This document shows positions 610 through 18,245 of a stretch of DNA of 64,000 bases, piece by piece (within the stretch, counting starts at the first letter, position 1; each line of letters begins with the position of its first letter). Below the pieces are notes generated by a model. It was not told where the DNA came from. It saw nothing but the letters and a program-made list of their open reading frames with translations, and ran no database searches. The DNA lies in IMG/VR virus record IMGVR_UViG_3300032038_000034, positions 38,773-102,772 of that record, one strand, 5' to 3'. This DNA comes from a virus. Taxonomy: Duplodnaviria; Caudoviricetes. The translations under genes were made by a program, and so were the position numbers.

Positions 610-1090
610 TTTAGACGTCGAGAACCTCCGAGTCAGTGACGTTAAAGTAATCGAAAAAGATGAGAGGCAGCGACCATTGCGTGTCCAGGAGCCTAGAGAT
701 CAAGTAGATACTATATATATGTGAATAGACACATACGTAGAGAGCCCCCGAGCCATTACGTAAAGACCGCCACCGTCCTCACGGTGTAATAATATGAGGC
801 CATTAGATCAAGTTTGCGATGTGCGAACCATGAGTCGGTGCTCCAGTCTGAGATGGTATCAAAAGATTGACACTGCGTTGTATATCAAGAATGCGAACAC
901 ATTCTATTGAGAACCCGCGAGTCAGTGATAGGGCAATGTGTTATTATTGAGGCAAAATAAAAAGTCGTTTCTAAGCGTTCGACATGCTTAAGTGGACCAG
1001 CTACCCACAAGAGCATAGAAAATGCGTCAGAATGGCTTAAAATAGCCTTAAATCGAGTGTTTTGACTGATCATCAAGACATTCACAAGTA
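610..1090 (+). ncRNA. Putative structured ncRNA or leader carrying four GA(A/G)C-N4-5-AG(T/C)C hairpins
   Basis: No + strand ORF. Motif copies at 621-635, 741-755, 824-836 and 910-924; three sit on stems of different sequence (e.g. GACGTCG/TGACGTT, TACGTAG/TTACGTA). Confidence 0.5.
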
Positions 1091-1095
1091 AGAAT

Positions 1096-1318
1096 CTTAG
1101 CGTGTGTGAGGTAAACTGTTGTGACACGGGTTCGACCCCCGTACGCTCCACTAACAATAATAAAATTGGGGCGTAATTGGTATAGAACGCAGTGGAAGTA
1201 AACACATTAAGCGCTTTGATATAAAAATTAACTGGCAATATTAACATTGCAGACTACACGGGCCTCCAGGAGGCAGCGTGAAGTCGGTGTACAGGCTACC
1301 TAAGTGCCTGTGAAACGA
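1096..1318 (+). ncRNA. ssrA: Circularly permuted (two-piece) tmRNA; predicted tag GNINIADYTGLQEAA*
   Basis: The 3' tRNA-like half (GAC, T-arm ACGGG-TTCGACC-CCCGT 1126-1142, ACGCTCC-A 1143-1150) precedes the 5' half (GGGGCGT 1168-1174). Together they form a 7-bp acceptor stem with G3:U70 and A73. Resume context TAACT-GGC; tag ORF 1234-1281 ends Ala-Ala-TGA. Outer boundaries are approximate. Confidence 0.88.
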
Positions 1319-1376
1319 GAGTGAGTTAAACTGGGCATCTTCGGATGCGGTGGGTTCGAGTCCCACACTCACTCCA
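1319..1376 (+). ncRNA. tRNA-like mini-RNA (no D stem; UUCG hairpin in place of the anticodon arm)
   Basis: 8-bp stem GAGTGAGT/ACTCACTC, hairpin GCATC-TTCG-GATGC, canonical T-arm GTGGG-TTCGAGT-CCCAC. Confidence 0.7.
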
Positions 1377-1440
1377 AAACGTCGTGAGACGCCGTATCTT
1401 TCGAATCTAATTACTTTTGCTCCACAGCGGTGGAGCATTT

Positions 1441-1514
1441 GGTTCCTTAGCTCAGCTGGATAGAGCAACAGATTTCTAATCTGTGGGTCAAAGGTTCGAA
1501 TCCTTTAGGAATCA
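1441..1514 (+). tRNA. tRNA-Arg (anticodon TCT)
   Basis: Full cloverleaf: GGTTCCT/AGGAATC, D arm GCTC..GAGC, anticodon arm ACAGA-TTTCTAA-TCTGT, T arm AAAGG-TTCGAAT-CCTTT. Confidence 0.95.
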
Positions 1515-1535
1515 CAAATTTAAAACATAATCAAT

Positions 1536-10126: not shown

Positions 10127-10187
10127 GATCAGAAAGCTGGTGCATGTGTTTATACACATGAGCGGATCGTTCCCGTAACTGATCACA
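10127..10187 (+). ncRNA. tRNA-like mini-element
   Basis: Outer stem GATCAG/CTGATC, hairpin CATGTGT-TTAT-ACACATG, T-arm-like GCGG-ATCGTTC-CCGT; same layout as 1319-1376. Confidence 0.45.
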
Positions 10188-12157: not shown

Positions 12158-12231
12158 GAGTGAGTTAGCTCAGTTGGTAGAGCAGCGAGTTAAGTCGGCT
12201 ATGTCGCAGGTTCGAGCCCTGCACTCACTCC
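12158..12231 (+). tRNA. tRNA-like gene with intact acceptor, D and T arms but a defective anticodon arm
   Basis: GAGTGAGT/ACTCACTC stem (identical to the 1319 element), GCTC-AGTTGGTA-GAGC, GCAGG-TTCGAGC-CCTGC. The segment AGCGAGTTAAGTCGGCT cannot form a 5-bp stem with a 7-nt loop. Confidence 0.7.
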
Positions 12232-17652: not shown

Positions 17653-17747
17653 AGTATAGATGCTAAAGCGGCCGAGTACCCTAGAGGGAAAGCATTTGAC
17701 GTCTAAGGCGTGCGGTGCACACAGAGGTTCGAGTCCTCTCTATACTA
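17653..17747 (+). ncRNA. tRNA-like element with expanded, non-canonical interior
   Basis: Perfect AGTATAG/CTATACT acceptor stem plus A, and T-arm AGAGG-TTCGAGT-CCTCT. The interior has ATGCT/AGCAT, ACGTC-TAA-GGCGT and GTGC-GGT-GCAC hairpins. Confidence 0.6.
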
Positions 17748-18053: not shown

Positions 18054-18191
18054 ATGAAGAAAAAAGATTATCACAAACCAGGATATTGGAAAGACTGGTA
18101 TTGGAACAAAGGCGGACGAGAAAAAGTCCAAGCAACACGTTATATTGCAGAATATGAACGTGAAAAAAGGAAAAATGGTTGTGAGGCTTAA
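18054..18191 (+). CDS. Small basic protein (45 aa, MKKKDYHKPGYWKDWYW...), not in the ORF track
   Basis: Translated by hand; fills the gap after 18047. Confidence 0.55.
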   Translation: MKKKDYHKPGYWKDWYWNKGGREKVQATRYIAEYEREKRKNGCEA

Positions 18192-18245
18192 AAGTAGGAA
18201 TAAAGCTAGTGCGCGCGCTAAGTGGTTCGAATCCACCCACAACTT
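18177..18245 (+). ncRNA. tRNA-like element with a tetraloop in place of the anticodon loop
   Basis: GGTTGTG/CACAACT acceptor, GCTT/AAGC D stem, TAGTG-CGCG-CGCTA, GTGG-TTCGAAT-CCAC. Confidence 0.55.

What the first reader, a model, noticed from the sequence alone, without database searches (positions are those of the whole stretch)
1096..1318. Circularly permuted, extremely reduced phage tmRNA with its own tag
Seen: the acceptor piece (T-arm + ACGCTCCA) lies upstream of the coding piece (GGGGCGT...), separated by a 17-nt A-rich spacer. The G3:U70 Ala determinant is intact and helix-2 pairings are present (GCAGT/ACTGT, ACACATTAAG/CTTAGCGTGT). The tag GNINIADYTGLQEAA* starts with a Bacteroidota-style TAACT-GGC resume context. 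Only ~22 nt separate helix 2 from the resume codon, leaving little room for pseudoknot 1, and under 40 nt follow the stop. Known: two-piece tmRNAs occur in alphaproteobacteria and some cyanobacteria and betaproteobacteria, while Bacteroidota tmRNA is normally one-piece. Inference: an independent permutation in a phage, which standard annotation could miss.
Basis: partly seen in the sequence, partly recalled or inferred. Interest (0 to 1): 0.85.

Follow-up and report, generated by a model that had tools for sequence, protein, structure and literature searches.

The report
Two-piece mini tmRNA, crAss-like phage
This crAss-like gut or rumen phage carries a real, back-to-front and roughly half-sized gene for tmRNA, the RNA that frees stalled ribosomes; public records of related phages already label the gene, but I found no paper describing its stripped-down build or the tRNA-like piece that ends it.

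Summary
Confirmed. ARAGORN calls a permuted tmRNA here with the tag GNINIADYTGLQEAA*. Rfam RF04321 (tmRNA_permuted) scores 53.7 bits against a cut-off of 47.

In 33 distinct homologues from crAss-like phages, 96% of cells in the proposed helices pair and 38 of 60 pairs show compensatory change. G3:U70 is kept in all 33. The DYT codons of the tag vary only synonymously, so the frame is read.

The RNA is stripped down. A four-part helix 2 ends 14 nt before the resume codon, so there is no room for pseudoknot 1. Three hairpins stand where pseudoknots 2-4 would be.

A conserved acceptor-plus-T-arm minihelix (1319-1376) follows the coding piece. It probably sets that piece's 3' end through RNase P.

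The tRNA-like domain, resume context and Gly/Asp-first tag resemble Bacteroidota one-piece tmRNAs, not the alpha or beta two-piece types. This suggests a fourth, independent permutation.

It is not missed by standard annotation. RefSeq relatives (cr273_1, cr7_1 and others) carry tmRNA features, and Buchholz 2022 Table S1 lists 13 crAss phages as 'Permuted'.

This scan has already reported the same family many times on other DNA: 96 notes match the search words, in at least 65 genomes.

New here: some relatives also carry a group I intron in the T-loop.

The parts
1055..1083 (+). Conserved upstream hairpin: 11-bp stem 1055-1065/1073-1083 with an invariant 7-nt loop CUGAUCA (1066-1072). It lies at a variable distance from the acceptor piece in relatives, so it is probably a separate element (a 5' processing or regulatory signal) and not an obligatory part of the tmRNA.
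   Evidence: Helices 1-2: 95% of cells paired, 7 of 11 pairs with compensatory change. In L044 it sits about 60 nt further upstream, and it is not next to the acceptor piece in L052 or L024. It occurs once in the window.
1095..1150 (+). Acceptor piece: 3'-side strands of helix 2 (P2d 1095-1097, P2c 1099-1103, P2b 1104-1107, internal loop GAGGUAA, P2a 1115-1122), T arm 1126-1130/1138-1142, acceptor 3' strand 1143-1149, discriminator A1150. The exact 5' end is not known.
   Evidence: ARAGORN 3' tRNA domain 1115-1151. Rfam RF04321 alignment. Covariation in helices 3-7.
1151..1167 (+). Intervening segment, 17 nt and A-rich, expected to be removed. It is among the shortest in the family, where it ranges from 13 to 179 nt. 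It lacks the conserved hairpin UAGGCA-UGUUGUAAAAC-UGCCUA that most relatives have just before the coding piece.
1168..1318 (+). Coding piece: acceptor 5' strand GGGGCGU 1168-1174, D-loop analogue 1175-1185, 5'-side strands of helix 2 (1186-1219), 14-nt linker, tag frame, three hairpins. These are the ORF hairpin 1235-1239/1246-1250, a long helix-5-like hairpin about 1252-1285 that holds the last codons and the stop, and a post-ORF hairpin 1292-1296/1306-1310 with the invariant loop CUACCWAAGUG. The 3' end at about 1318 is inferred.
   Evidence: ARAGORN 5' domain 1168-1193. Covariation. RNAcofold.
1234..1281 (+). Tag reading frame: GGC resume codon, GNINIADYTGLQEAA, UGA stop.
   Evidence: The frame is conserved in 46 homologues with synonymous variation: Asp GAC/GAU, Tyr UAU/UAC, Thr ACU/ACG/ACC/ACA. 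Stops are UAA 38, UGA 8, UAG 0.
1319..1376 (+). tRNA-like minihelix with no anticodon arm: 8-bp acceptor-type stem 1319-1326/1367-1374, UUCG-capped hairpin 1335-1348, T arm 1350-1354/1362-1366, then CA. It is a candidate RNase P / RNase Z punctuation signal that defines the 3' end of the coding piece.
   Evidence: It is present after the coding piece in every complete homologue. At least 8 different acceptor stems are fully compensated. The part between the stem and the T arm ranges from 10 to 66 nt, and some copies are called tRNA-Cys(aca). The T arm covaries (helices 10-11).
1441..1515 (+). tRNA-Arg(UCU), the next gene downstream on the same strand. Context only.
   Evidence: ARAGORN. Rfam RF00005, 69.6 bits.

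Best explanation
The region is a functional, circularly permuted (two-piece) ssrA gene of a crAss-like phage (Crassvirales, near Suoliviridae/Oafivirinae).

Proposed mechanism (all steps inferred):
1. One precursor is transcribed on the + strand.
2. The strands 1143-1149 and 1168-1174 pair to form an alanine-type acceptor stem (G3:U70, discriminator A). This stacks on a normal T arm and is held by a four-segment helix 2.
3. Host RNase P cuts 5' of G1168.
4. The 17-nt spacer is trimmed back to A1150 and CCA is completed by host enzymes.
5. RNase P also cuts 5' of the downstream minihelix at about 1318/1319. That frees a coding piece of about 151 nt. The acceptor piece is about 56 nt.
6. Host AlaRS charges the RNA. 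The phage has no SmpB, so host SmpB and EF-Tu deliver it to ribosomes stalled on broken mRNAs.
7. Translation resumes at GGC 1234, adds Ala-GNINIADYTGLQEAA, and stops at UGA.

The RNA has no pseudoknots; simple hairpins take their place.

What is shown: the sequence features, the conserved base-paired structure, and the coding constraint on the tag.

What is inferred: processing, charging, SmpB use, tagging, and the fate of tagged proteins.
For: - ARAGORN calls a permuted tmRNA with a full tRNA-like domain and tag.
- Rfam RF04321 scores above its gathering score.
- 52 of 67 viral contigs found with one 18-nt pattern carry the same gene.
- At least six different acceptor-stem sequences all keep G3:U70.
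- On 33 distinct sequences, 96.2% of cells pair, 38 of 60 pairs are compensatory, and 0 of 500 shuffles score as high.
- Tag codons vary synonymously and the frame never breaks.
- The D-loop analogue, the helix-2 motifs and the resume context resemble Bacteroidales tmRNAs.
- The downstream minihelix is conserved with compensated stems while its middle degenerates, down to 10-11 nt in L041 and L059.
- In relatives the minihelix ends 8-15 nt before the next gene's start codon.
- No SmpB gene is in the 102.8-kb phage genome.
Against: - There are no expression or end-mapping data.
- Pseudoknot 1 matters for activity in model tmRNAs, although stem-loop replacements are tolerated (my own knowledge, not checked here). 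So a form without pseudoknots is unproven as a tagger.
- The tag end (EAA here; VA in many relatives) differs from the host's LAA, so the proteolytic fate of tagged proteins is uncertain.
- The window's helix 2a has only 5-6 good pairs out of 8.
- No lineage-specific Rfam model passes its cut-off (cyano_tmRNA 34.4 bits against 70).
- RNase P cleavage at the minihelix rests on analogy only.
Confidence: 0.85

Rival explanations
1. It is a tmRNA mimic or decoy. The RNA is made and perhaps charged. Its role would be to soak up host SmpB or block host trans-translation, as reported for the tag-less tmRNA-like RNA of mycobacteriophage DS6A. On this view the tag frame is not used.
For: The RNA is very reduced, with no pseudoknots. 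The phage has no SmpB, so it must compete for the host's. PMC11915505 cites the DS6A case.
Against: The tag frame is intact in all 46 called homologues, and Asp, Tyr and Thr codons change only synonymously. The resume context is conserved and host-like. A decoy would not need either.
Confidence: 0.08
2. It is a decaying relic: a rearranged host ssrA fragment picked up by the phage, with no present function.
For: It is much shorter than host tmRNA (371-397 nt in four Bacteroidales MAGs). Some relatives have disrupted or odd T-loops.
Against: There is strong compensatory covariation across divergent phages. The tag is conserved. The position upstream of the same gene block is fixed. The 'disrupted' copies hold a group I intron, which can splice out.
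Confidence: 0.03
3. It is really a one-piece tmRNA. The coding piece would use the downstream T arm and 3' strand (1350-1376) as its own 3' half, and the upstream 'acceptor piece' would be a separate tRNA fragment.
For: A T arm and an acceptor-type 3' strand do lie downstream, in the order a standard gene would have.
Against: The downstream 3' strand ACUCACUC pairs with GAGUGAGU at 1319-1326, not with GGGGCGU. That local pairing is compensated in at least 8 variants. The upstream strand ACGCUCC pairs with GGGGCGU and covaries with it.
Confidence: 0.01
4. The gene is a working two-piece tmRNA, but the downstream minihelix is not a processing signal. It could stay attached as a protective 3' cap. 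It could be a degenerate tRNA of the phage's tRNA cluster. It could be a chargeable non-decoding acceptor with its own role.
For: Similar anticodon-less tRNA-like elements were noted elsewhere in this genome by first-stage readers. The tRNA-Leu at 12159 shares the same acceptor stem. In L024 a full tRNA-Met follows the coding piece.
Against: Only the acceptor and T arms are under selection, and these are the minimal RNase P / RNase Z / CCA-enzyme substrate (established knowledge). The element sits in the same place, right after the post-ORF hairpin, in all homologues.
Confidence: 0.25

Closest known systems
tmRNA features annotated in RefSeq crAss-like phages cr273_1 (NC_055904), cr272_1 (NC_055903), cr131_1 (NC_055902), cr7_1 (NC_055895) and cr124_1 (NC_055899). 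All are Suoliviridae, Oafivirinae. They are listed as 'Permuted' in Table S1 of Buchholz et al. 2022 (PMC9004378).
   Same: A homologous gene at the same genomic place. It has the same architecture and the same tag family; cr273_1 and cr272_1 encode GNINVVDYTGLQEAA. Identity is about 83% over the aligned parts.
   Different: The window's spacer is 17 nt against 69-78 nt, and it lacks the spacer hairpin. Its acceptor stem is GGGGCGU/ACGCUCC. The tag reads IA where those read VV. The public features simply copy ARAGORN's arbitrary span (54 nt before the 3' tRNA domain and 91 nt after the stop, as I inferred). None of the papers I searched describes the structure.
Two-piece tmRNAs of Alphaproteobacteria, one betaproteobacterial lineage and marine cyanobacteria (Rfam RF01849, RF01850, RF01851, merged in RF04321). 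This includes the phage-borne alpha-type copy of phage Melnitz (PMC9004378).
   Same: Permuted gene order, with the acceptor piece first. The acceptor stem is formed in trans. The spacer is excised by tRNA-processing enzymes. The number of pseudoknots is reduced.
   Different: Alpha forms have the T-loop GGCRGUA, and both alpha and beta tags begin with Ala. The window has a canonical UUCGACC loop and a Gly-first tag. Only the general model passes its cut-off. No pseudoknot is left here. A tRNA-like minihelix follows the coding piece.
One-piece tmRNA (RF00023) of Bacteroidales such as Segatella and Prevotella, with tags GENNYALAA and GNNEYALAA
   Same: GGC resume codon after (A)AUUAAYU, and a Gly/Asp-Asn start to the tag. 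The D-loop analogue UGGUUUUGACAG, GUUUGGAC before the T arm, and the helix-2 motifs (UAAGCA; GUGUAUGAAA against GCAUGUAGAAAG) are shared.
   Different: Host genes are not permuted, are 371-397 nt long in the four MAGs read, and match the full-length standard tmRNA model. Their tags end in LAA. None of 151 sampled Bacteroidota genomes had a permuted-model hit over the cut-off.
tRNA punctuation, and tRNA-like 3'-end signals such as the mascRNA element of MALAT1 (from my own knowledge, not checked here)
   Same: A tRNA-like fold placed directly after a non-coding RNA, where RNase P cleavage would create that RNA's 3' end.
   Different: This is a bacterial phage setting. Only the acceptor and T arms are kept. 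Cleavage is not shown here.

Membership tests
tmRNA, permuted (two-piece) form | The 3' half of the tRNA-like domain (T arm and acceptor 3' strand) is encoded upstream of the 5' half, and the two form the acceptor stem in trans | tested here: met
   ARAGORN 'Permuted' call. RF04321 at 53.7 bits against a cut-off of 47. P1 and the T arm covary.
tmRNA, permuted (two-piece) form | Alanine identity: G3:U70 wobble pair and discriminator A | tested here: met
   G1170:U1147 and A1150. The U:G pair is kept in 33 of 33 sequences (pair 125/328).
tmRNA, permuted (two-piece) form | A short tag reading frame with a defined resume codon and a stop, conserved as a coding sequence and ending in small or hydrophobic residues | tested here: met
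   Frame 1234-1281. All 46 homologues are in frame with synonymous variation. Tags end in AA, VA or IA.
tmRNA, permuted (two-piece) form | A long helix 2 joins the tRNA-like domain to the mRNA-like part | tested here: met
   P2a-P2d, 20 pairs, 16 of them with compensatory change (helices 3-5).
tmRNA, permuted (two-piece) form | Pseudoknots: PK1 before the resume codon. Standard tmRNAs have about four; known two-piece forms have fewer. | tested here: not met
   Only 14 nt lie between P2d and the resume codon. An all-against-all scan of alignment columns found no covarying pseudoknot stem. The one candidate, GGUG 1286-1289 with UACC 1297-1300, is invariant and so untestable.
tmRNA, permuted (two-piece) form | Processing into two RNAs, alanylation, SmpB binding, trans-translation | not testable with these tools
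   No expression or biochemical data were available.
Alpha-, beta- or cyanobacterial two-piece lineage | Passes the lineage-specific covariance model and shares the lineage's T-loop and tag type | tested here: not met
   cyano_tmRNA scored 34.4 bits against a cut-off of 70. Four lower-scoring overlapping matches of the same clan were left out of the listing. The alpha T-loop GGCRGUA and the Ala-first tags are absent.
tRNA (for the element at 1319-1376) | Cloverleaf with D arm and an anticodon arm carrying a 7-nt loop | tested here: not met
   Neither ARAGORN nor Rfam tRNA calls it. The middle is a UUCG tetraloop hairpin. Only the acceptor and T arms are conserved.

The most novel reading that the evidence does not exclude
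The crAss-like phage tmRNAs are a fourth, independently permuted lineage that arose from the one-piece tmRNA of Bacteroidota hosts.

On this reading they work with no pseudoknot at all. The 3' end of their coding piece is cut out by RNase P at a purpose-kept tRNA-like minihelix. [quoted passage not shown]

Their role would be to keep ribosomes free during infection by phages that read UAG as sense. In such infections, read-through of UAG-terminated messages and decay of host mRNA should raise the load of non-stop ribosomes.
Probability: 0.3. Interest if true: 0.7.

Novelty: new variant of a known kind. Interest (0 to 1): 0.5.

Why it matters
tmRNA is a textbook RNA whose pseudoknots and gene permutation have been studied in three bacterial lineages. 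This phage-borne family adds four things:
- A likely fourth origin of the permuted form, from a phylum whose own tmRNA is one-piece.
- A natural tmRNA that still encodes a tag but is about half the usual size and has no pseudoknots. That bears on what the pseudoknots are for.
- A clear candidate for how the unexplained 3' end of a coding piece is made.
- A handle on why abundant gut phages, many of which reassign the UAG stop codon, bring their own ribosome-rescue RNA.

It also shows that annotation tools miss the relatives with odd T-loops or introns.

Tried and rejected
1. One-piece reading using the downstream T arm. Rejected: the downstream strand pairs locally, not with GGGGCGU.

2. Pseudoknot search over all column pairs. 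No covarying stem was found beyond the nested helices. GGUG/UACC next to the post-ORF hairpin is invariant, and its loops would be very short.

3. Idea that host tmRNA tags end in UAG and are therefore broken by the phage's amber suppressor. Two Prevotella-type MAGs do end in UAG. One of them is the Segatella copri MAG that holds a binned crAss-like contig, L175. In samples, however, only 2 of 26 tags (Segatella genus) and 3 of 28 (family) end in UAG. It is not general. The figure of 0 of 46 phage tags ending in UAG is not independent evidence, because the phages are related.

4. Co-occurrence with the suppressor tRNA(CUA). BLAST with this phage's tRNA (genome 25316-25389, complement) found a CUA tRNA in 6 of 26 relatives that bear the tmRNA, and a tRNA-Gln(UUG) homologue in 2 more. 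The search is insensitive and there is no tmRNA-free control set, so this is inconclusive.

5. Cyanobacterial two-piece genes for the comparison panel could not be fetched (no hits, and the control was silent). The cyano comparison therefore rests only on the Rfam score.

6. The identity ranking of the tRNA-like domain plus the resume context favours Bacteroidota only modestly. The best hits also include an Ignavibacterium, a Lachnospiraceae and a Planctomycetota sequence. The domain is too conserved to settle the origin.

7. The upstream CUGAUCA hairpin is not repeated in the window.

8. The sigma-70 promoter and terminator scan gave nothing above chance, apart from a weak terminator-like hairpin at 1418-1437.

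9. No SmpB gene is in the phage genome.

10. Bacterial genomes holding the phage-type gene: 1 of 120 pattern hits, and that one is a binned phage contig.

Full report
**What is there**

ARAGORN calls a permuted tmRNA at 1061-1372 with the tag GNINIADYTGLQEAA*. Its detailed output gives these parts:
- the 3' tRNA domain at 1115-1151;
- the 5' tRNA domain at 1168-1193;
- the resume context AUUAACU-GGC;
- the tag at 1234-1281.

The ARAGORN span looks arbitrary. From I inferred that it always runs from 54 nt before the 3' domain to 91 nt after the stop. The same spans appear in the RefSeq features of relatives.

Rfam's general permuted model RF04321 matches 1102-1281 at 53.7 bits (cut-off 47). In E-value mode only cyano_tmRNA also aligns, at 34.4 bits, below its cut-off of 70.

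Exact coordinates:
- T arm 1126-1130/1138-1142;
- acceptor 3' strand 1143-1149;
- discriminator A1150;
- spacer 1151-1167;
- acceptor 5' strand 1168-1174;
- G3:U70 = G1170:U1147.

Only C1151 of a CCA end is encoded.

**Whose genome**

The window is bases 38773-102772 of a 102,772-bp viral record that CheckV rates complete. The nearest public phages are crAss-like (Crassvirales, Suoliviridae, Oafivirinae): cr273_1, cr272_1, cr131_1, cr7_1 and cr124_1. Each already carries a 'transfer-messenger RNA, SsrA' feature at the homologous place.

Reading TAG as sense joins the minus-strand late genes into long frames. One frame of 5487 codons has 53 in-frame TAGs. The plus-strand arm that holds the tmRNA does not need this. 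The genome also has a tRNA with anticodon CUA. It has no SmpB gene.

**Is it known?**

Buchholz et al. 2022 (PMC9004378) surveyed 18,146 phage genomes with ARAGORN. Their Table S1 marks 13 crAssphage records as 'Permuted', including cr273_1, cr272_1, cr131_1, cr124_1 and cr7_1. The text does not discuss them.

The 2025 tmRNA database paper (PMC11915505) treats permuted genes as alpha, beta or cyano types. It counts 48 permuted genes in Bacteroidota assemblies without comment and lists 79 phage sequences.

Five full-text searches found no paper describing the crAss-like form. So the gene's existence is public, and its anatomy is not described.

This scan's own index holds 96 notes matching the search words, in at least 65 genomes. 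The follow-up verdicts shown agree with mine.

**Comparative evidence**

One 18-nt pattern from helix 2 found 67 viral contigs.
- ARAGORN calls the same permuted gene in 40 of them.
- 12 more have the coding piece but are missed by ARAGORN.
- 15 are chance matches.

At least six different acceptor stems occur, all with G3:U70, and helix 2a and the T stem covary.

On 33 distinct sequences (alignment A2), the structure I derived from RNAalifold and a column-pair scan gives:
- 96.2% paired cells;
- 38 of 60 pairs with compensatory change;
- a covariation score of 0.437, against at most 0.101 when the partners are slid;
- no shuffle of 500 as high.

The same controls show that my first P1 register was one base off. 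I corrected it.

**Structure**

Helix 2 has four segments:
- P2a 1115-1122/1186-1193;
- an internal loop GAGGUAA/GGAAGUAA;
- P2b 1104-1107/1202-1205;
- an invariant bulge AUUAA;
- P2c 1099-1103/1211-1215;
- P2d 1095-1097/1217-1219.

Only 14 nt (UAUAAAAAUUAACU) then lead to the resume codon, so pseudoknot 1 cannot be present.

The tag region forms a small hairpin starting at the second base of the resume codon. A long hairpin follows that holds the last codons and the stop. It varies with compensation between tag subfamilies, and the window's 'GLQEA' is an inserted stem extension. Then comes a short hairpin with the invariant loop CUACCWAAGUG.

No pseudoknot has covariation support.

With ends at about 1095, 1150, 1168 and 1318, the two pieces total about 210 nt. 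The four Bacteroidales tmRNAs read are 371-397 nt.

**The tag is read**

Across 46 homologues the frame is intact.
- The first codon is GGC or GAC.
- The DYT core uses GAC/GAU, UAU/UAC and all four Thr codons.
- Stops are UAA (38) or UGA (8), never UAG.

The tag families are GN[IN][NK][IV][AV]DYTGLQEAA, GNINVNDYTKLAA, [GD]NYNV[VI]DYTHVA and [GD]N[VA]NNIVDYT[NCH][VI]A.

**The downstream minihelix**

Right after the post-ORF hairpin, every complete homologue has a T arm flanked by a 7-8-bp acceptor-type stem. At least eight stem sequences are fully compensated.

The part between the stem and the T arm ranges from a near-cloverleaf, which ARAGORN calls tRNA-Cys(aca), down to 10-11 nt. In L024 a full tRNA-Met stands there. 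In most relatives the next protein gene starts 8-15 nt after it.

Selection on the acceptor and T arms alone fits a substrate for RNase P, RNase Z and the CCA enzyme. The simplest reading is that RNase P cleavage at its 5' side makes the 3' end of the coding piece. This is inference.

**Origin**

Four Bacteroidales MAGs have one-piece tmRNAs with tags GENNYALAA, GNNEYALAA, GENRFALAA and GDNFAYRLAA. Their resume contexts, such as AUUAAUU-GGC, are close to the phage's.

I compared the phage sequences with a panel of 68 tmRNAs: 33 Bacteroidota, 23 other standard, 10 alpha and 2 beta permuted.
- The best matches to the phage tRNA-like domain plus resume context are mostly Bacteroidota (0.74-0.84 identity).
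- Alpha two-piece genes are the least similar (0.55-0.65) and have a different T-loop.
- Gly or Asp as the first tag residue occurs only in Bacteroidota, an Ignavibacterium and one Coriobacteriia genome.
- All alpha and beta two-piece tags start with Ala.

None of 151 sampled Bacteroidota genomes has a permuted-model hit over the cut-off. The only bacterial record with the phage-type gene is a 101.5-kb crAss-like contig binned into a Segatella copri MAG.

I put a Bacteroidota origin, and hence a fourth independent permutation, at about 0.65. Adaptation to host SmpB, AlaRS and ribosomes could also produce the resemblance. I could not fetch cyanobacterial two-piece genes for the panel.

**Function**

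I considered a link to UAG reassignment.

The strong form is that host tmRNA tags end in UAG and are broken by the suppressor. This fails as a general rule: 2 of 26 Segatella tags and 3 of 28 family-level tags end in UAG.

A homologous tRNA(CUA) was found in 6 of 26 relatives that bear the tmRNA, by an insensitive search with no control set. That is inconclusive.

The general idea remains speculative. It is that extra rescue capacity is needed when host mRNAs are degraded or read through.

**Verdict**

This copy is a new member of a family that public records already label. The family as a whole is an undescribed variant of two-piece tmRNA.

Noticed in passing
L054:7863-8143 (IMGVR_UViG_3300045988_089093); also L022 and L072: In three relatives the acceptor piece of the permuted tmRNA is split inside its T-loop (GGACAGGGGU | ... 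| UCGACUCCCCUCACGUCCAC). The insert is about 272 nt in L054 and about 800 nt in L022 and L072. Rfam Intron_gpI matches the L054 insert at 87.2 bits, E 1e-22. This gene is both permuted and intron-bearing. The 2025 tmRNA database paper (PMC11915505) lists these as separate forms. ARAGORN misses these copies.
   Followed up: partly
L024, L052, L044, L047 (acceptor pieces): Four relatives have non-canonical T-loops (AGACAUA, AGGCAUA, GGUCGCA, GGCAGAG) in an otherwise intact acceptor piece, and ARAGORN misses them. Three of them (L024, L044, L052) are the window's closest kin by tag (GNINIADYTGLKEAA). Alphaproteobacterial two-piece tmRNAs also have an odd T-loop (GGCRGUA). L024 has a small ORF inside its intervening segment.
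   Followed up: partly
Relatives in alignment A2, columns about 286-320 (for example within L003:1500-1886): Most relatives have a conserved hairpin UAGGCA-UGUUGUAAAAC-UGCCUA in the intervening segment, 3-4 nt before the 5' G of the coding piece. It is duplicated in the longest spacers (L011, L041, L060). It is absent from the window, L025 and L044.
   Followed up: no
window 1055-1083: A conserved 11-bp hairpin with the invariant 7-nt loop CUGAUCA and conserved flanks (GCUUAAAUCGAAUG ... UUUACAAG) lies upstream of the acceptor piece. Its stem covaries. Its distance from the tmRNA varies between relatives. Its role is unknown.
   Followed up: partly
whole genome G000:C1 (window = 38773-102772); tRNA at G000:C1:25316-25389, complement: The late, minus-strand genes need TAG read as sense; one frame of 5487 codons has 53 in-frame TAGs. 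The genome has a tRNA with anticodon CUA. In cr131_1 and a close relative (L070's record), the similar tRNA found by BLAST is tRNA-Gln(UUG), which fits TAG being read as Gln.
   Followed up: partly
L175 (JAJWOH010000001.1, 101,563 bp, in a Segatella copri MAG): A whole crAss-like phage genome with the GNVNNIVDYTNVA-type tmRNA is binned into a Segatella copri MAG. This is a weak hint at the host of the cr7-like group. That MAG's own tmRNA tag, GENNYALAA, ends in UAG.
   Followed up: partly
window 1418-1437: A GC-rich hairpin UGCUCCAC-AGCG-GUGGAGCA lies between the minihelix and tRNA-Arg and abuts the tRNA's 5' end. It is terminator-like by the simple scan but lacks a good U-tract.
   Followed up: no
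window 12159-12231: tRNA-Leu(UAA) has the same acceptor stem (AGUGAGU/ACUCACU, then C) as the minihelix at 1319-1376. First-stage notes list further anticodon-less tRNA-like elements at 10127-10187, 17653-17747 and 18177-18245.
   Followed up: no
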